DNA of 63,318 bases, the filler included, from Conidiobolus incongruus B7586 (taxonomy: Eukaryota): assembly GCA_000697335.1 (NCBI GenBank). It is 8 parts of 8 records of this genome, joined end to end, with 100 filler letters (N's around TTAATTAATTAA, not from the genome) between each part and the next. Parts side by side here need not be neighbours in the genome. Positions count along the whole stretch, not along the records: positions 21,343 to 46,121 come from JNEM01006003.1; 7 more parts are not named here. One strand, 5' to 3'. The position numbers and the translations under genes were made by a program. The stretch's first letter is position 1. Each line of letters begins with the position of its first letter. A model generated the notes under the pieces. That model had not been told where the DNA came from. It did not search any database and worked only from the letters and a program-made list of their open reading frames with translations. Positions 514-61,476 of the stretch are shown here, piece by piece.

Positions 514-1033
514 TATCTAATAATATATTATTATTTTGATCATAATGAATACAAAATTCAATTGATATATTTATGAGTTTGTTAATGAATTATAAGCTAA
601 TTTCTGAAAATACATAACTTTGAATGAATATAAAAGTAGTAATTATTGTCATAATATAAGCATTATATTAATCAAATTCATCTATATCAATACACCATAT
701 TTAAACTTCCCAAAATTTAAAATTATCAAAGTGATTTTGGTAATGTGAAAGATGTGCTAAATATTTATTTTAAACACTGGGATTCTAGATTAACCAAGTT
801 AATAATAAAACCAATTAAAAATAATCTAATAAATATATAAAGCAAGTTATTCTTTTTAAGTTTGTATTTTTAGATTAGTCATTAAATCATTTCAAATTCA
901 AATTCAAATTCAAATTTATATACATAATACCAATTAAAGACACTTTATTCAAATAACTAATAAAAAATTAATACAGTAAATTATGATTAATCAAAATATA
1001 ACCCATTTTAATTAATAGAAAGACGTAAAATTA

Positions 1034-12784: not shown

Positions 12785-13177
12785 TTAATCTGTTTGCATA
12801 TCGGTAGTCTGTTGCTGCTCCTTCCTCTTAGCATTCAACCTCTTACCATTATCCGTACCCAACCCAGCTGCCATTTCCGCCTCCTTCTGAGTATAAGGAG
12901 CTTCCTTCAACAATCTTAATCTCTTCTTATGGTATTTACCTCTTCTGTGCTCACTCAAGGAAGTTTCATCAATAAAATATTTACTACATTGAATACAATA
13001 GTGTTGAGCTAACCCTGGTAAATCAGGATCTACTTCCTGATTTTCTAATTTAGAAGCGTTTTCAGGTTCTAAATCTTCATGAATTTGGTCCAAGTCCTTA
13101 GTTCTACGTCTCAAACGATATTTACGTTTAATATCACGAATTCCTCTATGTTTACGACTTCTGGCTAATCTACCCAT
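12785..13177 (-). CDS. BUD20: C2H2 zinc-finger ribosome biogenesis factor (Bud20/ZNF593)
   Basis: RRRTKDLDQIHEDL, DPDLPGLAQHYCIQCSKYF..HRRGKYHKKRLRLLKEAPYTQKEAEMAAG. Confidence 0.95.
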   Translation of the reverse strand: MGRLARSRKHRGIRDIKRKYRLRRRTKDLDQIHEDLEPENASKLENQEVDPDLPGLAQHYCIQCSKYFIDETSLSEHRRGKYHKKRLRLLKEAPYTQKEAEMAAGLGTDNGKRLNAKRKEQQQTTDMQTD

Positions 13178-15576
13178 TTTTTATTTTTATGTTAATTTTA
13201 AATTAAATTTAATTAAAAAAAATATTTTTTTTATTTAATTATTTATTTTAATAAATTCTATAAATTTTTCTTTTTAAATAATAATTTAATTTTAAATTAT
13301 TATTAAAATTATTTTCATAATTTAAATTTTTTTTATGGGATTATTAAATTAATTTTAATTTTTTATATATTTTTTTTAATTTTTAGAGAATATAATGAAT
13401 CATGTAGAATGTGATAACCATTTATTGCTACAAATTGAATCGTAGTATTTCCTATTTTAAAAATTTTATATAATATTTTTGAGAAATAATTTTCAATAAA
13501 ACATTGAATAATAACTACATTTTAACTGAATTCTATATTTAACACTATAATTTAACTTTGATGATATGATTTAAAGATTTGGCTATATCCTTAATGTATA
13601 TTTCTATATTTTTATATATTTGATTATTTTAAACATTAATATAAAATTAATTTCCAATATATTACTATACTCTTTTATATCAAATATCAAATTTTTAATA
13701 TCTCATAATACAATAATTAAATTTTATGATGAAAATTTGAAAATTTCTTGTAATGGTTAAAAATTTAAACAAGGACATTGCAATCTATTGTATATCAAAT
13801 GTTCTGAGTGTAAAATGACAATTGATATAATTTTTTTCAATTAATACAATTAATAGTCACCTAAAAACTATTGACGCAATATTGCCGATATATTTAATCA
13901 CTTTATATTTAAATTTTTTAGATTGATTATATTCTTTAGCTAGATTTTTGGATATCTTATAAACTGAATGATAACTATAAAAATTCAATTGATAATTATC
14001 TGGAAGGGATTACTGTTATAAATCCTTAAAGATCGATTATATCAATTAATAACAATATATAAAAAATATAAAATGTATTTTAATCAACTCTAATTTAAGA
14101 TTTATTTATATAAAAATATATCTTAATACTCATGGGAAACGGTCTTATTTGGGCAAAATATGTTTAAAATATAATGGCAAATAAATGGTGTAATTTATCA
14201 TATTATTTTATTTCATTATTAGTCATATAAAATTAAAGATCACTATGAAAGCTTCAACTAAATATTTTATTTTAAATAGACCAATTTAAGCATATTAATA
14301 TTAAGTCAATGTATTATTATCTCATTTTAACTTTGGAATAGAAAAATCAATCAAATGATCAATATACAAGTTTAATAGCATTTAATCACTTATTTTATTC
14401 AATATATATGTTTATTAATTTAGAGAATATTAAGTTCTAAATTAAATTCAAATCAAAGAATTGTCAGATAATTTTTTAAATTTAAAACTTTAATCCTTTA
14501 AAACAGATAGTCATCGATTAGAAAATAGTCAGATAAAACTATTCTCAATTATTTGGAGTTATCTGATTTAATTTATCAATATTATGAAATAAAAAAATCA
14601 CTTGATATTTTATATTTAAAAATAAATTTTAATGAGTATAATGATTTATTAAAAAATAATCAATAATTATTAATTAATTTAGTCATAAAACCAAATTATA
14701 TTTATTTTTAAAATGTTTTAATAAAATATCATTAATTATTGTTAAAATTGATAATAATAATAATGAAAATTTATATTAGAAATATTATTTAAAAATTAAT
14801 TTAATTAAAGTTTTATATAACTCATATTTCATTTTTTAACTTTCATCAATTATTAAAATGAACTTATATTTATAAAATCTATAATAATAAATAAAAATTT
14901 TGTTTAATAAAATTGTTTTTATCAATAATAGCGTTTAAAATTCTTATATATCATTTTTTATAATTGGATTAACTCTTAATTAATCAAATAATTTATAATT
15001 TTAAAGTTAATATTATTAATTAAAGTCTTGATTTAATTGATATATATGTTTTTTTCTTTTCCCTCTTAATTCTTGTTTTTTTTTTGATATTTTATCATTA
15101 ATTTTTTAAAAATAAATTTAAATTTAATATTATATATTTAATACAGTCTAATATAAATCTAAAATATCTATATTGACTTATTTATTTAGCAAGCTAAAAT
15201 ATATTTTATTTATTTTTATATTATCCTGTTATATTTATACCATATTACAAGCTATAGTATTTTAATACTAAGTTTTCCTTTGTATTATATCTATTATATT
15301 AATAGTTTATTATTTAAATATATAGAATAGTTAGTTTAGATTTAAAATAATATTTTGATATATATTGAAATAAAGAGATATATCTAAAACTAAGATTTAC
15401 TAATTTAAATTCTTTATAAAATAAAATCTTAAGTTTTTGGTTAAACTTTGATAAGTTTTTTATAGTTTTATTTATTTTATATTTTTAATAATTTTTTGGT
15501 AAATAATAAGTTAGTTATTTTTTAATCAAAGCAAGTTTAGATTTTAATATATCTTATATTTATATAATTAATTTAA

Positions 15577-15676: not shown

Positions 15677-15730
15677 TAATAATTCACTATAAAAGCTTTT
15701 TTTTAATAATATTTAAGTAAGATTTACTTA

Positions 15731-17027
15731 TTACCTTAAGTTTAAAATAATGAGAAATTTTTTAATTTTTGTTTTTTCAAACATATTATTAGTTTGAAAT
15801 AAATAAATATATACAAAGTTAATAAAAAATTATATATTTTTGATATATATATATTTATAATAATTTTTTTGATTAAAAAATTAACTTTTTAAAATTAATT
15901 ATTTAATTTAGTTATATTTAAATTAAATAATAATCATCAAAAGTTTTTTATTTTAATATTAGTAAAACTTAACTAAAAGTATTTTAAAATTATTTAAAAT
16001 TTATAAGCAGCTTTTATAAATGAAATATTATTTAAATTAACAATTTATTGTTAAGTAAATTACTTTAAAGTTAAGTGAGAAACTATCAAATACCTATTAA
16101 AATCTAAAAGATTAACTTTAATTATTATTCTTTTAAATATTAATAGAATTAAAAAATATATTGAAAAGTATCTTTTTATTTCAATTAAAAAATTATTTAA
16201 GTATTTTAATATTAGTTTTATAAGTATTCTATATATATTAAAGTTTAAACTCAAATTAATAAATAAAAATATAAAATAAATACCTTATAATTTAATTAAA
16301 GCTTGAAAAGAAGCTAGAGTAATTATTGTTTAATAAAACCTATTAAAATATTACTAGAAGTTTAAACTTTTATAGTAAATAATTACAATTAATGAATCTT
16401 AAATCTTTATATATAATCATTTACTAAAACACAAATAAAAATATCAGATTAAATTAAATTAACCCTTTTTATAAATATCTTTAAATAAACAAATATTAAT
16501 TATTATAATAGATTATAATAGTATATGCTATTTTTATTTAATTTTTAAAGGAAAATCAATTACTAATTAACTTTATATTATTATTTTAAATAAAAGTATT
16601 TTTAATTAGTGTTCTTAATATAATTTGAGAAAACTTATTATTTTGTATAATAATTACAAAATATATAGATTTAAAGTTGTAAAAAACTTTCTAATTAAAA
16701 ATAACTGGAAAAAATTATCATATCTAGTATATTCTTTAGATTATAACCTATATAATTATAATTGCTTTAAACAATTAAAAAAACAGCTTATAAGAAAGAC
16801 AATTTCTATAAGAAAATTTAATTGGTTTGTGAAATATCAAATTTTGACTTTTAATAAAAAGAATTGTTTTTTAAATATTAGAAGTTTGTTAAAAATATAA
16901 CAAAAAATTATTAATAATAAAAGAAACAATTAAATTTATATTATATATTTATTTTTATATATTATATATTAAAATGTTTATTAATTTTTAATTACAAAAA
17001 ATTCCTATTATTAAAAATACAAAGTAA
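15731..17027 (+). mobile_element. Full-length (~1.3 kb) hypermutated mariner (D,D34D-type) transposon
   Basis: TA-flanked, with imperfect ~30-bp TIRs (TTACCTTAAGTTTAAAATAATGAGAAATTTT / AAAAATTCCTATTATTAAAAATACAAAGTAA). Transposase relics: K*IPYNL (WVPHxL), TINES*I (TxDESWI), ILYNNYKIY (LHDNxxxH), YSLDYNLYNY (YSPDxxPxDY). Confidence 0.85.
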
Positions 17028-17029
17028 TA

Positions 17030-17623
17030 ATAATAGTTATTTTAATTTTTTTCAGATTTAAATAATTTATAAGGTATTTATTTTATATTATTATTAATTA
17101 ATTTAAGTTTAAATTTTAATATAGATAAAATCCTTATGAGATTAATATTAAAGTATCTTGATAACTCTTTAACTAAAATAAAAGCTGTTTTTTAATATGT
17201 TATTTCATTTTATTAATAATCAATAAAGTAATAATTAAAATTAATTTTTTAAATTTTAATAAATTTTGAATAATTTTTCTTTTAATTTTAAAATAATTTA
17301 TATAGTGATAAATAGTTAATTTATATCATACTTTATTATTAAAAGCTATTTAATAATTTTAAATAGTTTTAATAGATTTATAGTTAAGTTTTATTAATAC
17401 TAAAATAAAATTCTTTTGATGATTATTATTTAATTTAAATATTATTATATTAAATAATTAATTTTTAAAAATAATTTTTTAATCAAAAAAGTTATTATAT
17501 ATATATATAATCTAGAACTTTATAATTTCTTATTTATTTTATATACTTTTAAATATTCAAAATTAATAATATGTTTGAAAAATCAAAAATTAAAAAATTT
17601 CCTATATTTTAAATTTAAGGTAA
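17030..17623 (-). mobile_element. 5' half of a second mariner copy in inverted orientation; it continues at 15677-15728 and hosts the 15731-17027 insertion
   Basis: The reverse complement matches ~15731-16325 including the left TIR. The reverse complement of 15677-15728 matches ~16330-16385. Confidence 0.8.
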
Positions 17624-20600
17624 TATCCATATAAAAACAAATATATATATTTCTATTAATATCAATATATTATTAATAGTCTTAGTAATTCTATGATAAC
17701 ATCCCTATATTACAGTATAATATAATTTCCCTTCATTAATATTTTTATAAAACCTTAACAATTATTTTAGTTTTTTTGTAATATGTATTATATATATATC
17801 TCTTCAAAATATTTTTAAATCAGGTAGTCATTTTAAGCAATTCATATCCATTATGTGCATAAAGCCAATGGTTGAAATTCCTCAATAACCTGTATTTCAA
17901 CTTGGTTTATACCATTATATGATTTTTATAAAACCATATTGGAATCATTATAATTCTGAATAAATAAACAATGAAATTTAGCAAAAAAAGGATATACCTA
18001 AAAATTATATGTAACATTTAGATTTTATTATCAAATTTATTTACTTTGTTATATCATTGATTGGCTGTTATTAGATTCACTATTATATGTAAAATATAAG
18101 ATTTGATGAAATACATATTTAATTATGAAACAATTTTATATTAATATTTGTAAACAATGATTTTTTGCAAATTAGTATTAACGTTTTGTCTACCCTTGAT
18201 ATAATATTTCGAACAATTAATGGATGTCACGATATATTTCATCCATTAAATGGTCGTTGTGATTTTGAAAAAAGTGACACTTGACTGCATTTTTTCAAAT
18301 ATCAAGATCAATCAATATCAATATTATATATGCTACTAAACTCTAACAACTATATTTACACTATTATAAAATAATTACAATTACATCAAATCCTGATTTT
18401 CAAACATGTATAGTTTTTATAAAATAGCAACCTTGTATTTGTATTTATAAAAATATATTAGCATTCTTAATATCATTGAAATAGAGTTAAGGTTATTGAT
18501 CATTCCACTGACCTTACAATGGCAATTACAGGGATTAATAAATTGAAACATATAGATAAAACTGTTTTTAACAATAGAGCTTTTCCCAATTTATTGATTC
18601 CTTTTTCGATGTTGAATGAATAAAATCATATTGTTTAAATTATAGTCGATTGAATATTGGATGATAAAAATAGAATATTGATATTAAATAAATGATCCAA
18701 TCCTTTAAGGTAAGTCTAGGATATTAATTAATATATATACCTTTAATATAATGATTCCACCATCTAAATATTTTAAAATTATATTTTGAAATCAAAATTT
18801 AGAATGAAAATTGCAGTAATTTGATAATATTATGTTTATCAAATATATGTAAACATTCTTATATTTTTTGAGAAATAATGAACCATTATACAGTATTGAA
18901 CAACAGATATATAATTAATTTGTTAATATCTCAAAAAAAGTTTTATTAATTTAAACCAAATACTTAAAATTTTTCGAAAATAATTATCAATGATCAATCG
19001 AATACTAAATCAATGAGTTTGAAAAACGATTTTGGATGCAATTGTAATTACTTTGAATCAATGAAATATTGCTAAAATTAGCTGCGAACATTTGTTCAAG
19101 TAATTGTTATAAATAAAATAATTTCTGTGCCAATTATTATGGTAACTCTGCAGTTATTAAATTGGTTAATCCCTTTAGTGAGAATAAAGAGTCGTGCAAG
19201 CGTCTTTCAATTATTCGTTGCATGTGCACAGGAGCTGGATGCTCATTATATTCAAAAGAAATTAACAATGCAAATTGATTTATGAACTCGGGTTACCTTA
19301 ATCTTGTTCCAAACCAACTTGATATGAACTGAAAGGAGCTTCGATCAAGACATGAAGAACTCGAAAAATATTAATCGAGAAAAGAAGAAAACCATATCTT
19401 AGTCCATAATGGACTTAGATCGATGTTATTTAGGAAACAAAGCCATACTCAATCTGAAGGTATACTCGGTAAAATAAGCAACACATGATGTCAATATAAT
19501 ACTAATGACGGCGCATGCGTATTCAACAACCTATCCAAACAATTAAAACCTTGCAGAAATAAAATGACTTCTACTGAACTTATCATTGATCAAATTATCA
19601 GAAATATAATTAAGATCCTCTGGAATTTAATGAGATTCGAAGTAATGTTCACAAGATTAATCATAAACCTAAATTTAGTTTTTTGGTGATATGTTAATAG
19701 GTCCGAACGCAGTGTTGCTATAGTGATGCTTCCTTTGGATATGGTGCTCAGTACACTATTTTATATTTATTTGAAATAAATAAAGCTTTTGGAAGTATCA
19801 ATAACAATACAATCGACTATGGTGGTGTTAAAGAAGATATCATGCGATTAACCTACAATCATTCCAATTTATCAGTGAGAATACCTGTAAACAAAAAATT
19901 TTATATATTTATGACTCATTTTTATTAACTCAAGCTGGTGCGGGAAGTTTTGTAATAGATCAAACATGAGTCAATATGAACTCGATAATATGAGCAGTAA
20001 AATCTCAGACTAAATGATGTGAACGATTTTAATAAGGATAAAAAAGGAAATCACACCACTATTAGTAAGTCATTGGTTTTATAATATGGTCCTTATTAAG
20101 CTTTAAGTATTATAACCAAAATATGGGAAAACTCTTAAATAATGTATTGATTGAAGTGAGTAAAGCCTCATGTTATAGTACTTTTGTCTAGAAAGCATTA
20201 TTCGCAGATTATAAGATTTATAGTGAGTGGGTTACTGCATATGGAATCCCATTCAAAGATATTCCTTTACTCACAAATACTTCTATAACTGAGTGCGAAG
20301 AGTAGCAACTAAGATACCCAGTTGAATATAGAAATATTTTTCGGTCACGCCAGAAAATTGTTGTAAGATTGGAATTGATAGTAGTATAAGATTATTAATA
20401 ATGATGCTGTATATATTCTGATTAAATATTTTAATCACCCAGAATATAAATACATAGTTTTGTTTATTTGGATATGACAATGTTTTTTAATATGATAATA
20501 AAATCTGGAGTTTAATAATTAGTTTTTAAAACGTATTGATATATGTTATTGGATGAAATATTAATTTCACTTGACTATTCAGGTTTTAAAACATTCTGTC

Positions 20601-22349: not shown

Positions 22350-23704
22350 TTATAATTGAGCTTCTTCACCATTAATAAATAATCTGAGAAGGTTCAAATC
22401 TTCGTCTAAGAACAAGAAATCGGCATCGGCACCACAGTTCAAAGTACCCTTTCTGTCTTGGATGCCCAAAACTTGAGCTGGGTGAAGTGTGGCAGCTTCA
22501 ATGGCTTCAACAGTTGTACATCCTGTGAATTTCTTGAAGTTTTGGACACATTCGTACATCTTGACATTGGATCCGGCAATGGTGTCAGTGCCAGCAATTG
22601 TGATTTTCTTACCCTTAACTTCAACGTTCATCTTACCCAAAGTATAAGAGCCTTCAGCTAAACCGGCGGCAGCCATGGCATCAGTGACTAAACAGGCACC
22701 CTTAGGGTGGGAGTAGTAAGCGATCTTAACTGAGTTGGGGTGAACGTGGACACCATCACAGATGATGCCATAGAATGGGCGTTCCAAAGAAGATCCAAGT
22801 AAACCAATACATCCAGGATCTCTGTGGTGGAATTGATTCATAGCATTGAATAAGTGAGTAACCATCTTAGCACCTCTGCGAACACCTTCTTCAGCCACTG
22901 TGGTGGGAGCAGCAGTGTGACCCAAGCTGACAGCGGGAATTCTCTTAACTAACTCGGGAATGGCATCAAGCATACCTTCAACATCAGGTGCGACGGTAAT
23001 CAAGCTGATAGCCTTATTATGATTGTCAAGGTTACCATAGACAGATTCTAAATCTGAAATACCGTTCTTGGCATCTCTGAGAGTGTTGACATCATGAGCA
23101 CCATACTTCAAATCGCTCATGAAGGGTCCTTCAAGATGGGCACCCAAAATTTCAGCACCGTCTTCAACAGTACCCTTTCTAGGAACTAAAGCAGGTAAAA
23201 CCTAATCAAATGGATACTTTTAGTTACCAAAGGTAAAATTAATTAATAATGAAGTAGTTACTCTTTCGTAAACATTGGGGAAGGAACTGACAATGGTGGG
23301 GCAGTAAGAGGTAACACCCTGATCTAAAATAGCTTTGGATACTTTTTTAAGACCTTCTTCAATGGTTTGGTAATCACCAGTGAAATCAACACCGTAAGCA
23401 CCTAAATAAAATTGAACGAAAATAATTAGCTATGTGAATAGATATTTTTTGGATAATAATACTTACCATTAATTTGTAATTCAATAAAACCGGGGACTAC
23501 TAAAGAGCCTTGAGCATCAATAATTTGATCAGGTGAACTCTTTTCTTCATAGAAGAGTTGAGCAGGGTCAACAAACTTTCCGTCTCTAATCCATAAATAA
23601 TCATTTTCGATAATTTTGCCATCTTTTAAAATGCGACCATTGATAATTTTGGTGATTTTGTTGTTAGATACTAATGAAGTTGGACTTTCGACTGATGGAG
23701 GCAT
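22350..23704 (-). CDS. DAC1: N-acetylglucosamine-6-phosphate deacetylase (exons 23704-23467, 23401-23262, 23201-22350)
   Basis: VVPGFIELQING|AYGVDF, GVTSYCPT, GAHLEGPF, SLGHT, THLFNAM, DGVHVHP, LVTDAM and TIAGS. Spliced length 1230 nt, in frame. Confidence 0.96.
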
Positions 23705-26164: not shown

Positions 26165-26236
26165 AGCTCTGCCTGAGAATCGAACTCAGATCGCAGGATT
26201 CAAAGTCCTGAGTGCTAACCATTACACCAGCGGAGC
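26165..26236 (-). tRNA. tRNA-Gln(TTG)
   Basis: GCTCCGCTGGTGTAATGGTTAGCACTCAGGACTTTGAATCCTGCGATCTGAGTTCGATTCTCAGGCAGAGCT folds as a cloverleaf with intact A/B boxes and a T4 run at the 3' end. One C5:A68 mismatch in the acceptor stem. Confidence 0.92.
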
Positions 26237-26246
26237 ATAATAATTT

Positions 26247-26802
26247 TGTCACGGTTATTAGCTCTTGGAGCGTCATTGAGGACACTGACACAGCCATTCT
26301 GTAGGCCAGATTGTGAAACATGATACCTACCAGCTGGGGTAAACTACCAATGATCAGATCTCTGGCTATTCGGCCTTGATCACTTGTAAATGGGGCTTTG
26401 TACAGAGCGACTAGACCAGCAGCAACAGTGGCGGCGTTAGGATCCGACATGCTAAAAGATGGAATCAAGGAATATCAATAGGAACGGGTTTAGAAGGATT
26501 AGTGTAAAATGACTCAAGTGGAACTATAAGCAGTTACTTGAGTATACCAAAAGGGTTGGCTTTGGATGTAGGAAAAAGGTTTATTAATGTAAGAAAGTAA
26601 GGTAAGAGAGAGAGATCAAGAAGGGAGCCGAGCCCTTCTTATACTTAAGTGAAATATATAGGCATAAGTATGCACGGATGAGTAACAGTGAGGTCACTCA
26701 GACGTGGACTGGTAAAATGTTGATAAGGCCTAATTTGGTTAATCAGGTACTTAATAGTGAATTGGAGTGAAGAAAGGTATCAATTAGGTAGCAATCGTCA
26801 CA
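26247..26802 (-). mobile_element. Solo LTR (556 bp) inserted 10 bp upstream of tRNA-Gln
   Basis: TG..CA termini with imperfect inverted ends (TGTCACGGTT / AATCGTCACA); 5-bp TSD AATTT at 26242-26246 and 26803-26807. On the minus strand: TATAAG (26643-26638), a CT-rich tract and AATAAA (26585-26580). Terminal 67 bp identical to 61327-61393. Confidence 0.9.
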
Positions 26803-28447
26803 AATTTAAATTATGAACCTATTTATTCTAATTAATATGCTCACTTATAAACTAATAATTTGTATTTATATACTTATATCAAACCATTTTTAAAATCTTT
26901 TCACTTTTTTCCATCTATTATTTTCTCACTACAATTTTGCTAAAATTTTCATCTTTTTTATACTTCAAATTCTATCAATCTTTATTTAATCCATAACTTT
27001 AATTCTTTATAATGTACTTTTTTAAACCATTTACTTCATTTCATCTAACACAGAACAATAATCTTATATAATTATATTTTATATCAAATATCAATTGGTT
27101 AAAGTAATTTTTTAAATTTATCAAAATAGCCATATAGTATACTTTAAAATGAGGTGATCAAATAATTATATTTTATCTATTGTTAATTTAAAAATAAAAT
27201 CATCATATTGTAGCGGATCGGGACGTCCGCTCTCTGTTTAACTTAAATTATACATCACTGTTTCGAATATAAAGCACATACAAGTGCCATGAAGGACCCT
27301 TGTTCGATGCGAAACTGGGTCAACAGCTACATCAGTGATTCAACGCATTGTAATAAAGATTGATAACACTATAAAATCACTACTGGGCACATATTTGCTC
27401 GAGGGTCATTTCGATCTGGGTTAAGCTCCATAAATTGATATTTTAATATAGCTCTTTAAAGCATCTCATTAGCCACCTTTGGCCAGATTTATTGAATCTA
27501 CTTGAACTTTATTGTAAGGCTACATTCCAGCAGACTTGAAATAGAGTAAATATTTTTGTTTTGGATATTAGAAAATAATTCAGATTTTTGATGAATCATT
27601 CAGTCTATTCTGAAATTAATAAATTTATAATCAATATATAATGTATACTGGAAGAAAAGATATTACTATTTATATTTTTCATAACATAGAAATTCTTAAT
27701 ATGGTTGAATGTCATTGTTTTTCTAATACTAAATTTAAATTGTTAAATTTGATATATGGTAATTACAACTGCTATTTAAACAATATTTCTATTACTTATC
27801 CTTAATTTTAGATAATTATAGTATATTTAAGGTATATTATTTATAATTATACATAATATTTTAATTCGCTCATTTTTAACTAATAATAATTGTTTTTCAA
27901 TATGGAACTAAATTGTCCGCAGTAAATCCATAGACTTTTTGAGATCTAATGATTTTCTTAATTGATCCATTGTGAAAACTGAGAATTTTTTAGTTAATGA
28001 TAGTCATTAATATAACTATAACCGTACTGTCGGAATCAATAATCCTTTAAATTATTTACTATTGGATTATTGATATTAATATTTTATTATTAATAAATAA
28101 ATTTGGAAAACAAATATATTTTTAGACAATAATTTGGTTAAAATAATTAACAATTTTCATGATTTTTAGTAAAATTATCTTTAAAATTTTTGGGAAGCTA
28201 GATATCATTAGCAACTGATGAAATATAAAATATTTTTAAATAACAATGTTATATATGAAAATTGAATAGATCAACTTGGAATAATCAAACATCTTTGATT
28301 ATAAATAATTTATTGGATATGCAATCCGCAGCTTAAAATCCATTAATTTGGATGCAATTTTTATGTATCCCTTAATAGTAATAATTTTGGTTTAACTCCT
28401 TTCGAATATAAACTTCTTAAAAATTGTAGTATAGTGGTTGTGAATAA

Positions 28448-31773: not shown

Positions 31774-33885
31774 TTATTGAGTGGCGAACCAGTATAAGGT
31801 ATTGGTAAGAGTATTACCGTCATCAACACCTCTATCGGAATTCAAAAAGTCTCTCAAACCGCCCTGCTTGTCAAAAATACCTTTGGCCATAAAGACGAAG
31901 GTACGCCAGCCGCTGGAGATAGGGGGGTCGGAGCGGGTTAGAGCTTGACTCAAGATGGGATACAGCTCACGAATCCAATTCTGATCCAGCAAGTTGTGGG
32001 AGATTGGAGTAAATGGAAGCATTTGAATACAATGGATGAATTCAGCATTTTTGCCGAACCAGGTAGCATAGTCGGCCTTGGTGTTCCATAATATGCCAAC
32101 AGTCTTATTTTGGGCGAAGACGTCGGGCCACACGGGAGGTTGTTGACTACTGTCCATGTGCCAGTATCTGCGACATGATCGGATTTCCATAGTGGTCAAA
32201 AGATTGCCAAGGTTGGAAAGATTGGTGTCATTTAAGGCGAGACCAAGAAGATAGATGGCATAGTAAGAGTTCACAGCTTCGGATGTACTCTCCTGGTTCT
32301 TTCCGTCGAAGAAGTCGAATAATCCACTGGCCCAGCTGTGGCCGTCATAGAAATCAAACATTCTAAACTTGGGGAAGTAGGGATCGTTGCCGTTGGGATT
32401 GGCGTAATCTCTGATTAAATCGTAGACATGTGCTCTATACTGATTAAGCCAGTTAGGATCGTACTTGCCAATAATCGCAGCTGCATAAACGAAGTAGCCA
32501 TAGTGGAAATGATGATCATTGTAGGCACCATTGCCAAAATCTGCATTGCTATCCCTGTAACCATTCAATGTCACGATACCACACCAAGTGCCATCATAAA
32601 CCAAAGGGTTGGGATTCTTGGACAAAAGCCAGGGTTCAATATATCTCTTGGCCTTGTCAATGATTCCACTAATGAGATAGTGAGCACCGACATGCTCAGC
32701 CATTAATGCGAGTTTAGCAATCTTGGCCAAAGATTTACCGTAAAAGTAAGGGTCTTGGACATTATCGGGAATTTCCAATTTAACATCCTCCTTCAACGCT
32801 TCCTGAATCACGTTGACTAGGTTGGGATCCACATTGCGAGGTGCGTGCCATTGGATTGTGTTCAGATCCTCCAACATTGTCCACTGATCCCCAACAACGG
32901 CTGTCATCGGTCCCTTGATGCATCGATATCCAGTCAAGTTGACGGTAGATTGATTCACTAAGCATTGTTGGTGGTGTGGTAAACTTAACATCAACACTGG
33001 CAAGTTACCACCACGCTTCTTGAAGCTATAATGAATATAAGCTTGACGATCGCTAGGGAATTCATAAACGACGGTAGCTGAAACAGGGTAGGTAGAGCTG
33101 AACTGGTCCAAGACTTGGAGATTTTGATCGACATTTTCAGGGACATAAGCAACACGTAGGGTTCCGTTGAATTGACCATTAGCCACGAGACTGTTGAGGG
33201 TGTGGGACCAGCTGATAGGAGCCGAGGCATAGAAGACCCAGGTTTGGCCATTGTTAAAAGTGACAGTAGTACGTCCATTCGAGGTGACAACCGATAAAAT
33301 AGCGTGAATGGTGGAGAATTCCAAGGTGGCATTGGTCAAGTCCATAGTAATATAGGGACACCCTCTGACGAAATAAGCGCGCATTCTTGTGTTGTCATTA
33401 TCATTACCCCACTGCAAACTTGCAGATAAATCATCCTCATTGATAAGTTTGCGAGGCATGTTGGACGATTCTCCAATCTTCATAGTCCAATTGGCTACGA
33501 ATGGGCTGATCACATAGTCGGCTGTGGGTGTCAAGACAGGGTAACAGATGACCATACCGTTATCTGACATTTGGAGGATGTAAGGATATAAAGGCAAATA
33601 ACTCTTACCCTCATTTAACACGAGATTCTGCCACCATCTGTTGGTTTGGTAAGGACCCTGACTTCTATTCCAAATGCCAGTAGGACCCTGCAAATTTTCA
33701 GAGTGAGGTGGATAAGAAGGCTCTCCATATGTCAAGTCGGCCATCGATTCGGAACTCTCTACAAGGGAAGAATTACCCTCGAAGAAGGATAATGGTCTGG
33801 TCTTCTCTCTGACGCTGGTTTTAGGGCCCTCGGCTGGGGTACGATCCCAAAAAGCTGAAATCCAAGATTTGGGTAAAGATAGCAT
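31774..33885 (-). CDS. GH81 endo-1,3(4)-beta-glucanase, intronless, no signal peptide (Acf2/Eng2-like)
   Basis: PYQTNRWWQN, DPYFYGKSLAK, ADFGNGAYNDHHFHYGYF, FDFYDGHSWASG, NQESTSEAVNSY and IQMLPFTP. Confidence 0.95.
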   Translation of the reverse strand: MLSLPKSWISAFWDRTPAEGPKTSVREKTRPLSFFEGNSSLVESSESMADLTYGEPSYPPHSENLQGPTGIWNRSQGPYQTNRWWQNLVLNEGKSYLPLYPYILQMSDNGMVICYPVLTPTADYVISPFVANWTMKIGESSNMPRKLINEDDLSASLQWGNDNDNTRMRAYFVRGCPYITMDLTNATLEFSTIHAILSVVTSNGRTTVTFNNGQTWVFYASAPISWSHTLNSLVANGQFNGTLRVAYVPENVDQNLQVLDQFSSTYPVSATVVYEFPSDRQAYIHYSFKKRGGNLPVLMLSLPHHQQCLVNQSTVNLTGYRCIKGPMTAVVGDQWTMLEDLNTIQWHAPRNVDPNLVNVIQEALKEDVKLEIPDNVQDPYFYGKSLAKIAKLALMAEHVGAHYLISGIIDKAKRYIEPWLLSKNPNPLVYDGTWCGIVTLNGYRDSNADFGNGAYNDHHFHYGYFVYAAAIIGKYDPNWLNQYRAHVYDLIRDYANPNGNDPYFPKFRMFDFYDGHSWASGLFDFFDGKNQESTSEAVNSYYAIYLLGLALNDTNLSNLGNLLTTMEIRSCRRYWHMDSSQQPPVWPDVFAQNKTVGILWNTKADYATWFGKNAEFIHCIQMLPFTPISHNLLDQNWIRELYPILSQALTRSDPPISSGWRTFVFMAKGIFDKQGGLRDFLNSDRGVDDGNTLTNTLYWFATQ

Positions 33886-35544: not shown

Positions 35545-38500
35545 ATATCATTATTTTATGATACAGTATTCATTGGGAAACGAGATTAATTCACATTATA
35601 CTATAAATACTATATATGAAAAAGATGCTTGATTCCAAAAAATCAATAGTATAACATTATATAATAGAATCTGAATTTTATGATGATATAACTATTTTTT
35701 TATAAATTCATTTTTTCCTTACGTTTGTTCAATAATATCGTGTGAATTTATCGAGGTATAACTAATTTAATTCAAGAATCTGGTATCTATAACCTGCTAT
35801 AAATATAAATTTTTGAATTTTTCTGAATTAAGTTTTTTACTTAAAAATCAGATATTATCTTTTACATGAATGATCTCAACATTTCAATTAATAATTATTA
35901 CTTTGATTATATAATAATATTTATCATTTTATTTTTTAGATGATCAATTAAAATTTAAAAAATATATTTTTTTGGATAATAAAAATTCCTATAAGTTTTT
36001 TTATCTGGTTGAATTATACTTAAATTTTTTCAATCAAAATATAAAATTATTACAATAAAGATAAATTGAAATGAGTATTACATTAAAAATAAATTATATT
36101 AATTTCATGTAATATTAAATAGTCAATAATTATACCTATATGAAAATAAATTTATTACAAATATGCATTAACCTAATTGTTAAAAGAGTTTAATTTCAAT
36201 AGCTGGATAGATATGTTAAAATCTAGAACTCAATCAAGAACTATATTATATTGTTTATGGACTTGCAAAATATAGCTAATGTGAGACTGTTTTTTCAGGT
36301 AAGTAGTTACATTTTAGCAAGTGTGGGAAAAATACAGTCTTCTCAAGGGTGATCAGCTATAAGGGCGCCTGAATAGCATATTTTTCAGAATAAGGATTAG
36401 TTTGGATTACGCTTAAACCAATAACTCTGTTGTAAGTAGCTATCTCACGCTCACAACATCAAAAGCACTTTGTAAGTTACAGGTAAGGAAAAAGTAGATA
36501 TTAGAAGGTAGATCAGAAAAGGATATAATACTTATTATGTGCTAACTAGAAACTATTTTCATCTTAATAAACTTAGAATAGATGACATATTTTGCTTATT
36601 TATTAAAGGTGGAGTTCTTACTGATCTCTTTCTTGTCTAGCTTATCTCTTTGATTTCTCAGTTCAGTATGCAAAATAAAGTTTTTATAACGGGGATAGAA
36701 AATTACTCCAATATTAATTATTGTATCAACTTATAATCTACAGTATAGTTCCTTAAGCTATATATATTAAACACATATATTATTTTAAATAGAATTAATA
36801 TATTTATAAAAGTTGGAGAAATTTAACATTAGTATTAATTTCAATTAACATCCTCTTTGATTTATCAATTAATATATAAGCATAGTGGTAAATACCAATA
36901 TAGAATAGAGGAAGAGTTAATATAAAAGTAGTGTGACATAGAATGTGGTATTATAATGTGGTTGTAATGTGCAAATATAAACAAAGTTTAATTAAGCTTT
37001 GAACTGGGATAAGTCACTGATATATTAAGATTTATATTAGATAATGCTAATATATTATAATATTGATAGGATATAGTTTCAATTTTAGAAATAATAAAAA
37101 AGATAAAAAATAGTAAGAATTAAGAGAAAAAAAAACCTAGTTTATTAAATAATTCAATGTTATTTATATAATTAATTTAGTTATAAAAGTATAAATTAAT
37201 CATATAATTTATAGTTAATTGAATTATATAAAAATATATATAAGAATTTAAAAAACTAGTTTTTTAATACTCTTTTAATAAATTTCTTAAAAGAAACATA
37301 CTCTTTAGATTTTTACAAATAGATATAATAGGTTAAGATATTCTTAATATTTTTTAAAGGTTCTTATATAACTTCTTTAATAAGATAACTTATCTATTTT
37401 ACATAAAAATAAAGCTTATTCCTAATAGATTTAGATTTAATTATGTAATTAACATAGTATTTTTTTCTCTATCTTAATTAATAATTTAATGTAGTTTTAA
37501 AGTTTTTAATTGATTAAGAAAAGTATTAATATCTTCAAAATAAGGCTTGATTTTGAATATATAAAAGATAAAGTTGATCTTTAAAGTTAAAAGTAATTTT
37601 AAGATAATATTTTCAATATTTAAATCAATAGATTAAATTTTATAAGGATTATAATATAATAGCAAGTATTTTAGATTTAAGTTAGATTTAAGTAAGGTAA
37701 GTTTAAACATCAATTATTCTAAGTATACAAATATATTAATGTTAAATTTAAGAGGATTTTTAAATAACTTTAAATATTATTGTTTTATAATCCTTTAATG
37801 TTCTTCCAAGTTAAATTTAACAAAGAAATTAATATATTTGATATTAGATTAAAATTCAACAATATCTAAAGATAAATTGATTTAAAGTTTTAAAGCAATT
37901 ATTAAATTAGGATATTTATTATAATTAATAAAATAAGAGTTAAAACCTGTTGATTTATTATTAAAAATGTTAAATAAATATTATAATTGTTAGATATAAA
38001 TATTTTAATTTAATTGATTAGTGTTAATATAAGCTTTAATCATTTGGTTTAAGCTTTTAATAGTTTTTTCAATAAGTTTATTAGTTTAATAATAATTGAT
38101 AATAAATATAGCTAGATTAATCTTAAAAGAAAAAGATAATAACTTTCAAAATTAAAAGTTGAATTATATATTTTTATCAAATATAATAGTTTGTAGAACT
38201 TTATAATAGGTAAAGATATTAAAGAATAATAATTATATAATATTTTTAATTATAGAAGTTTTAAGATAAAGAATAGAATAAATATACTTAAAGAATAAAT
38301 TAATTACAATTAGTAAGTTATTATAATTAATTATTAATTTAAGAATTTCTATGAAATTAGGTTAGATTTATTATTAAGTTTTATTAAAAACTTATAGGGG
38401 AATAAATTCAATATATTTTAATTAGGTATTATATTTAGTTTTTTAGCATATTTCACAAGTATTAATGTATTTCTAAATTAATTCAATTAAAGAAAGTTAG

Positions 38501-40253
38501 TAATAACTTATTTTAATTCTTTTAACAGTCTTTAATTAGTTTTAATATTTTTTAACAAGTAAGTTATAATATTTATTAAATATTGCTTGTTAAATCTTAA
38601 GAATATTAAAGATATATAGACAATTATTATAATATAATAAGTTATCAATGATTTTAAATCTTTTAACATATTTTAATTAGTTTTCTAATAGTTTAAAAAG
38701 TTTTTTTTAATTAAAATAAAAAAATCATCATTTGATAATGTTTTTTAAACTAATTTAATAAATTCTTTATTGCCTTCATTAATAATTATTAAGTTAATAT
38801 TTACTAGCTTTTTATAATTAGAATAAAAGGATAAATATATAAGATTTTTTAATAAAGTATCTATAATAAAATTTTATTCACTTAAAAAATATTAGATAAA
38901 AAAATTAACTTAAATAATTTTAATCTATTTAACTTATTTTCTTGATAAGTACTTTTGAGTATTTAAATAAATAAGTGATTTGTGATTTATAAGTATTAAA
39001 AAAATTATAAGATAAGAAATATAAATGATTTTTAAATATTTCTATTAAAGCAAAAAGTTTTTATTTATAAACTAGGTATTTTAATTTAGCTGGTTTTATT
39101 TTTCTTAACTAGAATATTATAAGCTTTAAGATAATATTTATAAAATTAAACTTAACTTACTCTTCTTTATTTATTATTTTATTTTAAAGTTAAAAGGTAA
39201 AATATTAATTAAATTTAAACTAAGTTAATTATTTACTAATTATAAAAAAATTAAAGTTAGTAAAAATAATAATAGGTACTTTAAAATTAAAAATATATAA
39301 AGTAAAAATATTGGTAATATAGAAAATTAAAGCATTCATGTAAAAAATATATAATAGGGTTTATTTAAAAAGAGAGTTTTTTCTTAAGAAATTAGTTAAA
39401 AAAGTTATAAATTCAACAAAAAAATTAATGAAATCTTTAAAATAATATAATAATCTAAATATAAAAATAAGTTAATTTTTTTTTATAAATATAATAAAAG
39501 CTTTTACTTTATTAAGTTTAATTAGATTAATGTTAATTCCTTAAGAAAAAACAATATAATTATAAAAATAGATAAAAAAACACTAAAAATATATTTTAAT
39601 AACTTTAAAGGTAATTTATGTTTTTGAATAATTTGTAAAATTTGATTAATATATTAAATATATTCTTTTTAGTTTTTAAATAGATTAAGATATTATTAAA
39701 ATAAGTAATAATAAAGTTATTAAAAATAAGGTTAAAAAGGGAATTAATGAATTAAATAAAAATTACAAAACATTACACAATCTAAAGTTTATAATAATAA
39801 ATTTATAATAGCTTAATATAATATTGAAAATAATTAAAATAATAGAGTTTTCTTTAACTTTAATATTATAGTAATTATTTCTAATATTTAATTTAATGAA
39901 TATAATAGATTTAAGTAGTTTATTTTTAATATTATATTGGTTTAATAATAAAGTTTTATCCTTAATAGTTTTAGAGTTTAAAACATAGTTATTAATATAT
40001 AATCTTCAACCACCATTAACCTTTTATATAAAAAGAATAAGAGATTTTTATAATCAGGAAAAAAGTTTAATATGCCTATTTTTAAATAATTTTTAAATTT
40101 CTTCTTTTAAAGTTTAATATTATTTAAAAGATAAATAGTAAATAATTTTTAAGTATAGTTAAATACTTAAATGGAGTTTAATTTTATATTTAATATTATA
40201 TTTAAAAAGTAATTTATTCACAAGTTTAAAAACATTAGTATATTAACTTACTA

Positions 40254-41826
40254 CACTAACCTACAAAAGTGAGTCATAAAATCAAAAATATATATATTTT
40301 AATTTATAACTAAAACAATTGTATATATTAGATTACTTGAAACTATAATATATAATTAAGGTATATTATTTAATAATAGATAAATATATTTAGATATATT
40401 TAGTAAGCTATTAGCAAAAATATTAACCCTTAATATTTAACCAAGATGAGTTATAAATTTGCAGGTTTTTGAGATAAAGGGATATATATAACAATATATA
40501 ACTATATCTTTTTTCTCTTTTTGCTATTATTTTATATAATATTTTACAGATATACTAAATTCTTTTTATTAGTATTATTATACCTAAATCCCTCTCTAAA
40601 AAAATCTACTTGCACATTAATCAACTTTATAAAGAAAGTAAATCAACTTGTGATATTGCTAGAATTACTAGTGTTAGCTAGTCTACTATAGCTAAGGTTG
40701 TTAAGAATAGCAATGAAGAAACATTTAAACCTAAACTTAAATGTGCTAAAATCATAGATGAACATGATGAGAAGTATATCTATAGGTTAGTTAGTACAAA
40801 CAAATATAGTACTACTGTAGAAATATAGCAAGAATTACAAGACTATACAAGAATATTAGTTAGCACTGATACTATTATATGTGCTTTACATTAGCATAGA
40901 TACCACTTACACTTTAAAAAAAAACACCCCCAACTAAAGAAATCCCACTATAAAGCTAGGTAGGAGTTTAAATGTCACCACTAATGTTGAACTGAAACTA
41001 ATTAGAGTAAGGTTATTTAGTCTGATAAAACAAAAATATACCTTAGTAAATCTGATAAAAAAGTTAGATGCTTTAGAAAAGATACAGAACTACTTTATGA
41101 CCATTATGTTAATTTTACCCAAAAGTATAGTGGTGGGTTAATTATTGTTTGGGGATATATGTTGTCTTTAAGTATAAGGTATCTTTGTAAAGTTAATAAG
41201 GGAATTAATGTTGAGATGTACTAAAATATTGTGAACAATGAATTGAAAAAAACCATTGAATGGTATAGGTTAAACAAATCTAATGTTATTTTCTAGCAAG
41301 ATAATACTTCTTGCTATACTACAGCTTTTACTACTAAATAGCTTAAAAATAACAAGATAACAGTTATGAAGTGGCCTCTTTAATCTCCTAACTTTAATCT
41401 AATTAAACACCTTTAGGATTAGTTAAAAAAAGCTATTAAAGCTTTCCCCCTAGTAAAAAATTTAGATCAACTTTGGGAATATGTTCAAGAAGTATAGAAC
41501 AAGATTAACCCTTCTTAGTATAAGAAGTTAGTTGATTCTATACCCCACAAACTTAAAGAAGTTAGAAAAGCTAAAGGTAGATACACTAGGTTTTAATTTT
41601 TTTTTATCACCAAAAACCTACAAATTTATAACTCACCTTAGGTAAAATTTAAGGGTTTATATTTTAACTAATTAATAGCTAAATATCATCATTTAATGAT
41701 ATATATAACTAATAAATATAATAGATTTTAATTATTTAATTTAGGTTTATTTCATTAAATATTAATCAAGTTATTAGTAAAAATATAAGTGTTTTTGATT
41801 TTATGACTCACTTTTGCAGGTTAGTG
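40254..41826 (+). mobile_element. Tc1-family (DD34E) IR-DR transposon, copy 1, least degraded
   Basis: TA-flanked; 35-bp outer TIR CACTAACCT[A/G]CAAAAGTGAGTCATAAAATCAAAAA; inner repeats ~170-215 bp in. Colinear transposase ~40579-41596: KSTCDIARITSVS*ST (HTH), VI*SDKTK (WSDE), F*QDNT, WPL*SPNFNLIKHL* (WPxQSPDxNPIEHLW), AKGRYTRF*. Confidence 0.93.
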
Positions 41827-43428
41827 TATATTATATAAAAAGTAGTTATTAGTTATAACTTCATTAAAATTAATAAATAAAATATTAATAAATAAATAAT
41901 AAATAAATATATATATCTTTATAGATTATGAAAATTTTTAATTAGTTTTTTATATTAATTTTTGTTTATAATAATAGTATTATTTAACACAATTATAGAA
42001 TTAATATTAGGTAAAATATTTAATAATTTTATAATAGGGTAATATAAATGTTTTAAGATTAATTCTACTAATTTCTTTTAAATTATAAAAAAAAATAAAT
42101 TTATAACTTTTTAAAGTAATATTCATAAATAAAAAACTATGGTATTTAAACTAATTTTAACCTAGTATAAAATTATAACTAATATTACCAACTAAGAATT
42201 TAATATATTAAGAGTAGCTAAGAAATAGTAATAAATATTTAAATATAATATTAAATATTTATTTTATTAAATTATTAACATATTTAATTATTAAGCAGCT
42301 TTTTTAAATAGGTAAAAATAGTTTTATAATAATAAAAAAAGAAATAATATAATTAAAACAACTAAAGTTAATTAAAACATAAACAAGTATATCTATAAAA
42401 TATTTAGTTAAAAAAAACAATAAAGTGATAATTAAAAGTAAAAAATTATAAGGTAAATTAGTTACTAGAATATTTTTAATTTCTAATAATTTAATTAATT
42501 AGATCTCTTTAATATATATAGTTTAATTTTTGGAATTATTAGTTTATTAGAACTTTTGTGTATTAGATTAAAATCTATTAATGAATTATAAAAGAAGTAA
42601 TTTTAAAGTTATATTAATATTATTCAGGTTTAATTTATAATTAGTAGATTAAGATTATTAAAAATTAAACAGATATTGTTTTTTAAAAGGATATTTATCA
42701 TCTTTATAATTAATTTAAATTATTTAGAAATAATAATAACTTTTATTGACTTTTAAATAAGTTTTAGCTTTTTCATTAAAAGTTTTCTTATAGAGCTTTA
42801 AAACAGAAATATATATTATTTGAGATTTAAGTAACTAAAAGTAAATTTTAAAAGATTAATTTTTAAGATAAAAAATTTAATTATAAAATAAAAGATATCA
42901 TCAATTATTATTACTATATTACAAATATTAAAAAAAATATAATATTAAAATATTCCCAATTAATTAACTAAAGTTTTATTTGAAGATTAAAGTATTATAA
43001 TCACTTATAGATTTTTTTTAGTGATATTTAATATGTTTAAATATATCTCATTAAATTTCTTAAATAATTACCTTATAGAAGTTTTTTATTGAATTTAAAA
43101 AAGCTTTTATTTTGTTAATTAAACTTAATTTTTTAAATAAAATTTCTTTTTAAAAGCTTTTTCTAATTATTTAATGGTTTATATTTTTATAGTAGGTTAT
43201 CCCCTTAAAAACTCTTTATAATTAAGTTCATAATAAATTAACTACTAAATATAAGTTATTTTTTTTCAAATAAAATAACTAATTTAAAGATATTCTTTAA
43301 ATCTTTATTAAAAATTAAATTAAAATAATTTTTTATAATTTTAAAATAATATTCAAGATTGTAGAGGTTTTTAAAACTATTATAAATAGTTAATTTATTT
43401 TTAAAAATATTAAAAAGATAGTTTAATA

Positions 43429-44997
43429 TACTAACCTAGAAAAATAAGTCATAAAATCAAAAACACTTATATTTTTACTAATAACTTAATTAATATTTAA
43501 TGAAATAAACTTTAATTTAATAATTAAAATCAATTATATTTATTAATTATATATATCATTAAATAATAATATTTAGCTATTAATTGGTTAAAATATAAAC
43601 CTTTAAATTTTACCTAAGGTAAGTTATAAATTTATAAGTTTTTGGTAATTAAAAAAATTAAAACTTAATATATTTATCTTTAACTTTTCTAACTTCTTTA
43701 GGTTTATAAGGTATAGAATCAATTAACTTTTTATATTAAAAAGGGTTAATTTTATTTTATGTTTCTTAAATATATTTTTAAAGTTGATTTAAATTTTTTA
43801 CTAGAGGGAAAACTTTAATAGCTTTTTTTAACTAATCTAAAAAGTGTTTAATTAGATCAAAGTTAAAAAATTAAAAAAGCTATTTTATAACTATTATCTT
43901 GTTATTTTTAAGTTATTTGGTAGTAAAGACTATAGTATAAGAAAAAGTATTATCTTATTAAAAAATAACATTAGATTTGTTTAACCTATATTATTTAATA
44001 GTTTTTTCAATTTATTATTCAAAATATTTTAGTACATTTTAATATTAATTCCCTTATTAACTTTATAAAGATACTTTACACCTAAAAACAACATATATCT
44101 TTAAATAATAATTAACTTATAATTGTACTTTTAAGTAAAATTAACATAATAATTATAAAGTAGTTCTATATCTTTTCTGAAGCATTTAGCTTTTTTATTA
44201 GATTTACTAAGATATATTTTTATTTTATTAAACTAAATAACTTTATTCTAATTAGTTTTAGTTTAATATTAATAGTAATATTTAAACTCCCACTTAATTT
44301 TATAATGGGATTTTTTTAATTAAGGGTGTTTTTTCTTAAAATATAAGTGATATCTATGTTAATATAAAGTATATATAATAATATTAGTGTTAAATAATAT
44401 TCTTATATAGTTTTATAGTTTTTGTTATATTTCTACAATAATACTACACTTACTTATATTAACTAACCTATAAATATACTTCTTATTATATTTATCTATA
44501 ATCTTAATATTATTAAGTTTAAGTTTAAATTTTTTTTATTATTATTCTGAATAGCTTTAATTATAATAAACTAACTAACACTAGTAATTCTAATAATATT
44601 ATAAGTTAATTTATCTTTTTTATAAGGTTAATTAATATATAAATAGATTTTTTTAGAGAGGGATTTAGGTATAATAATACTAATAAAAAAATTTATTATA
44701 TCTGTAAAATATTATATAAAATAATAACAAAGAGAGAAAAAAGATATAGCTATATATTATTAAATATATCCCCTTATCTCAAAAACCTACAAATTTATAA
44801 CTCACCTTAGTAAAATATTAAAGGTTAATATTTTTGCTAATATTTTACTAAATATATCTAAATATATTTATTTATTATTAAAATATATACTTCAATTATA
44901 TATTATAGTTTTAAATAATCTAATATATATAGCTATTTTAGTTATTAATTAAAATATATATATTTTTGATTTTATAACTTACTTTTATAGGTTAGTA
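43429..44997 (-). mobile_element. Tc1-family transposon, copy 2 (inverted, more mutated)
   Basis: Full-length reverse-complement match to copy 1; TA-flanked; TIRs degraded by transitions. Confidence 0.9.
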
Positions 44998-61326: not shown

Positions 61327-61393
61327 CAATCTGGCCTACAGAATGGCTGTGTCAGTGTCCTCAATGACGCTCCAAGAGCTAATAACCGTGACA
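61327..61393 (+). mobile_element. Terminal 67 bp of the same LTR family, 10 bp upstream of tRNA-Ala; truncated by gap
   Basis: Exact reverse complement of 26247-26313, ending ..TAATAACCGTGACA. Confidence 0.9.
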
Positions 61394-61403
61394 CAATTTA
61401 AAA

Positions 61404-61476
61404 GGGGAATTAGCTCAAATGGTAGAGCGCTCGCTTAGCATGCGAGAGGCACGGGGATCGATACCCCGATTCTCCA
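61404..61476 (+). tRNA. tRNA-Ala(AGC)
   Basis: GGGGAATTAGCTCAAATGGTAGAGCGCTCGCTTAGCATGCGAGAGGCACGGGGATCGATACCCCGATTCTCCA has G3:U70, anticodon AGC, the eukaryotic Ala ATCGA T-loop and a downstream T4. Confidence 0.96.

What the first reader, a model, noticed from the sequence alone, without database searches (positions are those of the whole stretch)
26237..26807. tRNA-gene-targeting LTR retrotransposon: the same LTR end sits exactly 10 bp upstream of two different tRNA genes
Seen: a 556-bp TG..CA element with a perfect 5-bp TSD (AATTT) ends 10 nt (26237-26246) before mature tRNA-Gln. An identical 67-bp LTR end lies 10 nt (61394-61403) before tRNA-Ala on another contig, in the same orientation relative to the tRNA. 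The spacers and tRNAs differ, so these are independent insertions rather than a segmental duplication. Both tRNA genes in the window are occupied. Established: S. cerevisiae Ty3 integrates at Pol III start sites via TFIIIB with 5-bp TSDs, and Dictyostelium DGLT-A/TRE elements target tRNA genes. Inference: this is a position-specific, Pol III-tethered LTR family in an early-diverging fungus, possibly an independent origin of tRNA targeting. I cannot check whether it has been described.
Basis: partly seen in the sequence, partly recalled or inferred. Interest (0 to 1): 0.9.

Follow-up and report, generated by a model that had tools for sequence, protein, structure and literature searches.

The report
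tRNA-homing retrotransposon in an early fungus
The 556-base end repeat of a jumping gene sits exactly 10 bases in front of different tRNA genes in a Conidiobolus-like fungus, facing the same way at every junction we could see, so it likely homes in on the tRNA transcription machinery as yeast Ty3 and Tj1 do, although many copies show no tRNA at that end.

Summary
Observation confirmed: a 556-bp TG..CA LTR with a 5-bp TSD, and an identical 67-bp end, each lie 10 nt upstream of a different tRNA gene. The host is close to Conidiobolus coronatus. Run contigs add support: one clear and one probable further tRNA-Gln junction in the same register; a tRNA A-box signal at exactly 10 nt in 1 of 4 flank consensus lines; and three head-to-tail LTR pairs, each 5 nt apart, as repeated insertion at one cut site predicts. 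[quoted passage not shown] New: an ORF starts 204 nt inside the LTR and shows a third-position bias among variants, likely the Gag start. Against: 2 of 4 flank lines show no tRNA signal and most such flanks are long, so targeting is not shown for all copies; the opposite LTR end was not visible. No gag-pol was recovered, so superfamily, tether and independent origin are untested. Verdict: a probable Tj1/Ty3-like Pol III-targeting element in Zoopagomycota, not found described in nine literature searches.

The parts
26247..26802 (-). 556-bp LTR (solo, or collapsed full element); sense strand inferred to be minus, so the U5 end faces the tRNA
   Evidence: multi-copy in run contigs
26242..26246 (.). 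tRNA-proximal copy of the 5-bp target-site duplication
26803..26807 (.). distal copy of the 5-bp target-site duplication
26237..26241 (-). 5 nt of host DNA left between the TSD and the mature tRNA 5' end
26165..26236 (-). tRNA-Gln(TTG) gene, target; one non-standard pair in the acceptor stem
26247..26450 (-). 68-codon ORF that starts inside the LTR and runs open off its U5 end; likely Gag N-terminus (inferred; no homologue found)
   Evidence: no hits
26655..26660 (.). TATA-like hexamer (palindromic, so it does not give the strand)
26617..26641 (-). 9-bp hairpin just downstream of the TATA-like sites; whole-region fold not better than shuffles (z -1.31)
26580..26585 (-). AATAAA, the only one in the LTR, on the minus strand; candidate poly(A) signal
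61327..61393 (+). identical 67-bp U5 end of a second LTR copy at a contig start
61394..61403 (+). 10-nt spacer (predicted TSD in the first 5 nt; its partner is off the contig)
61404..61476 (+). tRNA-Ala(AGC) gene, target

Best explanation
This is an LTR of a multi-copy retrotransposon family that lies exactly 10 nt upstream of several tRNA genes in the tRNA's own direction, and its integrase likely docks on the RNA polymerase III initiation factors bound there and cuts at a fixed distance. Shown: LTR anatomy, 5-bp TSD, two window junctions, one clear further junction, stacked LTR pairs 5 nt apart. Inferred: staggered cuts 10 and 5 nt before the mature 5' end; a new copy lands between an older copy and the tRNA, which builds LTR-5 nt-LTR stacks; LTR-LTR recombination leaves solo LTRs; the gag frame starts inside U5. 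Taken by analogy with Ty3 and untested: TFIIIB (Brf1/TBP) as the tether, and Ty3/gypsy membership. A part of the family (unknown size) has no tRNA at the U5 end.
For: 2 of 2 window tRNA genes, same offset and strand, different spacers. table 3: five rows point to one contig aligned from 26210 inside tRNA-Gln through a spacer that differs at 4 of 10 listed positions into a variant LTR (depth 41.6 and 22.7 in the two runs, equal to a joint where that LTR diverges); two rows point to a second contig aligned from 26213; the X2 flank consensus of 15 contigs matches the recalled A-box/D-arm motif at 8 of 8 positions only at distance 10 (null: 0 of 5000 intergenic draws, 2 of 5000 whole-window draws at n=15; at any distance 3-14 at most 12 of 5000), and its letters differ from both window tRNAs, which points to further isotypes; 3 of 3 distinct head-to-tail LTR joints listed have 5 nt between the LTRs, each a different 5-mer, and in 3 of 3 the U5-side end is damaged, as expected if the younger copy sits nearer the tRNA. 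Orientation: AATAAA and the ORF are on the tRNA's strand; 9 of 13 listed variants in the ORF are at third codon positions (p 0.009), 7 of 13 synonymous (p 0.028). Precedent: Tj1 5-11 bp upstream, all forward (PMC4600332); Ty3 integrase bound to Brf1/TBP acts as a ruler (10.1101/2021.07.27.453949).
Against: table 7: U5-end flanks in 11+14 contigs (X1) and 7+15 (X2) have a median loose length of 255, longer than a break in a multi-copy tRNA gene would leave; 2 of 4 consensus lines have no tRNA signal and look like random intergenic DNA, and a third scores only 6 of 8 (null about 6%). The motif test was chosen after seeing the lines. X1 and X2 are one sample and may be the window's source. The tables are cut (334, 282 and 1099 rows hidden) and no U3-end flank was shown, so reverse-orientation insertions were not seen either way. 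The listed ORF variants are linked within a subfamily and are 13 of 40 shown rows out of 374. No gag-pol, PBS or integrase was found.
Confidence: 0.75

Rival explanations
1. The family has only a partial or subfamily-limited preference: some lineages or some events hit the tRNA start at 10 nt, while many insert in AT-rich intergenic DNA (fallback sites), or tRNA-adjacent copies are simply the ones that selection keeps.
For: Long AT-rich U5 flanks without tRNA signal in 2 of 4 consensus lines; 291 of 486 contigs laid in X1 are under 95% alike, so older subfamilies are in the pool.
Against: Selection alone does not give a one-nucleotide register or 5-nt stacks; a variant (older-looking) LTR also sits at 10 nt from tRNA-Gln. 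The tRNA-less U5 flanks could be reverse-orientation copies or sites whose tRNA was lost.
Confidence: 0.15
2. The element recognises DNA sequence (tRNA 5' half, or its own LTR end) rather than bound Pol III factors.
For: Fixed offset from the tRNA 5' end; tandem LTR joints.
Against: The Gln and Ala 5' ends and spacers share little sequence; known LTR elements at tRNA genes use protein tethers (PMC5911963 passages).
Confidence: 0.05
3. Assembly artefact or chance: repeat-to-repeat misjoins place an LTR end beside multi-copy tRNA genes.
For: The window is a fragmented assembly with near-identical duplicate contigs; the Ala contig starts inside the LTR and its junction was not checked in run data.
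Against: Perfect TSD at the Gln site, unique spacers, the same register in separately assembled run contigs, chance about 1.6e-5 per end.
Confidence: 0.03

Closest known systems
Tj1 of Schizosaccharomyces japonicus (PMC4600332: passages and Discussion read; PMC10085805: passages)
   Same: [quoted passage not shown]
   Different: LTR here is 556 bp against 244 bp; begins TGTGA not TGTCA; holds an ORF start; register so far is exactly 10; host is in Zoopagomycota; relation of RT/IN unknown.
Ty3 of Saccharomyces cerevisiae (PMC6673722 and 10.1101/2021.07.27.453949: passages)
   Same: Narrow window at the Pol III start, 5-bp TSD, several tRNA isotypes, solo LTRs left behind.
   Different: Ty3 inserts in both orientations in wild type (as stated in PMC4600332) and near a start site 10-12 nt upstream; here the TSD's proximal end is 5 nt from the mature 5' end. 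The TFIIIB contact is shown for Ty3 and untested here.
Beta/Tca8 (Candida albicans), Tyl3/Tyl6 (Yarrowia), DGLT-A (Dictyostelium) (PMC5911963, PMC5006619: passages)
   Same: Ty3/gypsy LTRs known from genome position upstream of tRNA genes.
   Different: Wider windows (6-30 bp, 13-33 bp); DGLT-A in either orientation; other host lineages.
Ty1 of S. cerevisiae (gag start inside the LTR: recalled, from no call)
   Same: A gag frame that begins within U5; association with tRNA genes.
   Different: Ty1 uses a window of about 1 kb (PMC5911963 passage) and, as recalled, has only about a dozen codons in the LTR against 68 here.

Membership tests
LTR retrotransposon (LTR/solo LTR) | TG..CA ends with short inverted repeat | tested here: met
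LTR retrotransposon (LTR/solo LTR) | 4-6 bp target-site duplication | tested here: met
   5 bp at the Gln site
LTR retrotransposon (LTR/solo LTR) | dispersed multi-copy family with promoter and poly(A) motifs | tested here: met
   486 and 574 contigs laid, many distinct flanks; TATA-like and AATAAA motifs
LTR retrotransposon (LTR/solo LTR) | internal gag-pol, PBS and PPT between paired LTRs | tested here: inconclusive
   no internal region in the window; no homologue of the LTR ORF
Ty3/gypsy (Metaviridae) | pol order RT-RNase H-IN and RT phylogeny | not testable with these tools
   no pol sequence recovered; no genome held
Pol III-targeting LTR elements (Ty3/Tj1 type) | narrow insertion window at the tRNA 5' end, across different tRNA genes | tested here: met
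   10 nt at Gln, Ala, one clear and one probable further Gln locus, and an A-box signal at 10
Pol III-targeting LTR elements (Ty3/Tj1 type) | the large majority of copies lie at Pol III genes | tested here: inconclusive
   many U5 flanks lack a tRNA signal; U3 flanks not shown
Pol III-targeting LTR elements (Ty3/Tj1 type) | dependence on Pol III factors (integrase-TFIIIB contact) | not testable with these tools
   needs integrase and an assay
Tj1 / Tf1-sushi chromoviruses | fixed orientation relative to the tRNA gene (Tj1) | tested here: inconclusive
   all junctions seen are forward and 3 of 3 stacks are head-to-tail, but only the U5 end could be examined
Tj1 / Tf1-sushi chromoviruses | self-priming PBS and integrase chromodomain | not testable with these tools
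   internal region missing
Tj1 / Tf1-sushi chromoviruses | LTR ends TGTCA..TGACA (Tj1, Tosmo, Tcry1; PMC10085805 passage) | tested here: not met
   U5 end is TGACA but the U3 start is TGTGA; a weak feature

The most novel reading that the evidence does not exclude
An orientation-fixed, single-nucleotide-precise Pol III-targeting retrotransposon lineage in Zoopagomycota, unrelated to Ty3 and Tj1 (an independent origin of tRNA targeting), which stacks new copies at one site and carries the first 68 codons of Gag inside its LTR.
Probability: 0.25. Interest if true: 0.78.

Novelty: new variant of a known kind. Interest (0 to 1): 0.58.

Why it matters
In the reviews read (PMC5911963, PMC7175516: passages), tRNA-upstream LTR elements are listed only for ascomycete yeasts and dictyostelid amoebae. 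A case in Zoopagomycota makes an open question testable: is Pol III targeting an old property of one retrotransposon lineage or repeated convergence in compact genomes? An RT/integrase tree would decide. Fixed orientation was called unique to Tj1 by its describers (PMC4600332), so a second case would help find what breaks intasome symmetry. A one-base register is also of interest for safe-harbour integration tools, and the contrast with the Ty3-inflated genomes of related Entomophthoraceae (PMC11105155 passages) bears on genome-size evolution.

Tried and rejected
No whole genome is held, so the genome-wide distance plot could not be made. Run search: 24 runs listed, 21 hold a part, 4 hold half or more and are one sample; no RNA holder listed; 4 of 24 were laid. 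X5 and X6 gave 6 and 1 contigs; their LTR pieces are identical at depth about 4, read as carry-over (inference) and not used as other species. The Ala junction remains unchecked in run data. LTR ORF homologue searches were empty: longer proteins (376 candidates, none), 50% representatives (two hits that are repeat artefacts), Pfam, PDB sequences, metagenome and viral contigs; the Atlas gave no answer. LTR-end pattern in metagenome contigs: 0. Single-sequence AlphaFold model is two helices, pTM 0.43: generic, so no fold search was run. LTR RNA fold is not better than shuffles. TATATA was rejected as strand evidence because it is a palindrome. Depth sums were not used as copy number. Segmental duplication rejected (different tRNAs and spacers). 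Two-LTR-circle junctions as source of the tandem joints judged unlikely because the three 5-mers differ (inference). BUD20 placed the host only among early-diverging fungi. Earlier-findings look-ups by place and by sequence were empty; one search returned nothing on this topic.

Full report
Observation. The window is eight contigs joined by N-padded linkers. At 26247-26802 lies a 556-bp, 42% GC element in AT-rich DNA, with TG..CA ends and AATTT on both sides. Its tRNA-facing end is 10 nt from the mature 5' end of tRNA-Gln(TTG). The first 67 bases of the last contig are an exact copy of that end and lie 10 nt before tRNA-Ala(AGC), same orientation, different spacer. These are the only two tRNA genes in the window. 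The TSD 5-mer is at about 1.2% of local positions and the offset has a chance of about 1.6e-5 per end. The 10 nt include the TSD, so the cuts would be 10 and 5 nt from the mature end.

Host. A GH81 glucanase on the same contig as the Gln site is 82% identical to that of Conidiobolus coronatus, 59% to Entomophthora muscae and 57% to Neoconidiobolus; BUD20 gives early-diverging fungi as best named hits. The host is thus a Conidiobolus relative (Entomophthoromycotina, Zoopagomycota).

LTR anatomy. Read on the tRNA's strand the LTR has TATA-like sites at nt 143 and 160, a 9-bp hairpin, a CT-rich tract, the only AATAAA at nt 218, and an ATG at nt 353 that opens a frame running without a stop to the LTR end. 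That segment is 49% GC against 37-38% for the rest; a shuffled segment is stop-free in 3.5% of trials per frame. Of the 40 variant rows that one search shows (334 more hidden), 13 fall in this ORF: 9 at third positions (p 0.009) and 7 synonymous (p 0.028); the antisense frame that shares third positions also scores 7 but has 3 stops. The 12 indel rows shown all lie outside the ORF (36 hidden), and one deletion inside it removes a net 39 nt. The variants are linked, so the p values overstate. I read this as the Gag N-terminus inside U5 (inference); no homologue was found. [quoted passage not shown]

Other copies. One search listed 24 runs; four from one sample hold most of the stretch. I laid two of them and two weak holders. 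X1 and X2 gave 486 and 574 contigs over all identity bands, so this is a multi-copy family with young and old members. They may be the window's own sample, so they are not a biological replicate, but they show loci absent from the window. (a) Five rows of table 3 point to one contig aligned from 26210, inside tRNA-Gln, through a spacer that differs at 4 listed positions, into a variant LTR; two rows point to another aligned from 26213 (my reading of the 'from_end' column as distance to the aligned end). That is one clear and one probable further junction in the same register; a 1-nt indel in the spacer cannot be fully excluded because rows are hidden. (b) Table 5c has 6 rows; 4 are LTR-to-LTR joints, 3 distinct. 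Each leaves exactly 5 nt between head-to-tail LTRs, each a different 5-mer, and in each the U5-side end is damaged. Re-insertion at the same two cuts predicts exactly this: old LTR, TSD, new LTR, TSD, 5 nt, tRNA. That these stacks end at tRNA genes is not shown. (c) Table 7 gives four consensus lines for flanks at the U5 end. One (X2, 15 contigs) matches the recalled A-box/D-arm motif at 8 of 8 positions at distance 10 and at most 4 at other distances; null draws reach this in 0 of 5000 (intergenic) and 1-2 of 5000 (whole window). The test was chosen after seeing the lines.

Against. The matching X1 line scores 6 of 8 (null about 6%), and the other two lines (11 and 7 contigs) have no signal and agree about as much as random intergenic DNA. 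Median loose length is 255 in all four, longer than a break in a multi-copy tRNA gene would leave. So a substantial part of the family, at a likeness threshold of 80%, has no tRNA at the U5 end. These may be reverse-orientation copies, off-target or fallback sites, old copies whose tRNA was lost, or an untargeted sister family. No U3-end flank was shown (282 rows hidden), so orientation is not fully tested. No contig spans the LTR, so solo versus collapsed is open, and the Ala junction is unchecked in run data.

Mechanism. Most likely (0.75) the integrase is tethered by Pol III initiation factors and measures a fixed distance, as the Ty3 integrase does with Brf1/TBP (10.1101/2021.07.27.453949, passages). 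Shown: register, TSD, stacks, direction at the junctions seen. Inferred: cut positions, stacking order, solo-LTR formation, Gag start. Untested: tether, superfamily, priming, origin.

Comparison. Tj1 is the best match in behaviour: 5-11 bp upstream of the mature 5' end, all forward, called unique in that respect (PMC4600332, passages and Discussion). Ty3 places the TSD's proximal end within 20 bp of the mature end, near a start 10-12 nt upstream (PMC6673722, passages). Beta/Tca8, Tyl3/Tyl6 and DGLT-A have wider windows (PMC5911963, PMC5006619, passages). The element works like Tj1/Ty3; membership of Ty3/gypsy or Tf1/sushi cannot be claimed without pol.

Novelty. Nine full-text searches listed no paper whose title or abstract start describes tRNA-targeted LTR elements in Conidiobolus or other early-diverging fungi; for most hits I saw only the listing. 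Passages of PMC11105155, PMC7175516, PMC10085805 and PMC3248453 ('tRNA' occurs 0 times in its main text) did not mention it. The library lacks most subscription journals and Repbase, and I read no supplements, where such a family could be listed.

Verdict. Real feature; probable Pol III-targeting LTR family in a new fungal phylum, Tj1-like in offset and direction, with an unusual ORF start inside the LTR.

Noticed in passing
window 27209-27524: A second, unrelated 316-bp LTR-like segment (38% GC, 6-bp inverted ends TGTAGC..GCTACA) about 400 bp beyond the U3 end of the main LTR; no matching TSD, single copy in the window.
   Followed up: partly
window 40252-41829, 43426-44999, 46292-48112: Three copies (83-87% alike) of a 1.6-1.8 kb very AT-rich element with terminal inverted repeats, MITE-like non-autonomous DNA transposon.
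   Followed up: partly
window 48312-52559, 52660-55309, 55410-61226: Three overlapping contigs of one midasin-like AAA ATPase gene (name recalled from the translation), 99.66-99.96% identical: alleles, recent duplicates or redundant assembly.
   Followed up: no
window 26165-26236: The LTR-occupied tRNA-Gln has a C-A mismatch in its acceptor stem; could be decay after insertion or a natural variant.
   Followed up: no
window 26455-26645, run contigs: Many family members keep both LTR ends but diverge or are replaced in the middle, starting right at the ORF's upstream edge (joints from 26455), which suggests subfamilies with different R/U5 leaders.
   Followed up: no
window 12-537, 15729-17625, 36869-37267, 45308-45705: Further AT-rich dispersed repeats of 400-600 bp, 80-86% alike.
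   Followed up: no
window 22353-23704 (-), 31774-33885 (-), 12788-13180 (-), 62125-63318 (+): Host genes: an intron-containing amidohydrolase like N-acetylglucosamine-6-phosphate deacetylase (recalled), GH81 glucanase, BUD20, and an MCM-family helicase start (recalled).
   Followed up: partly
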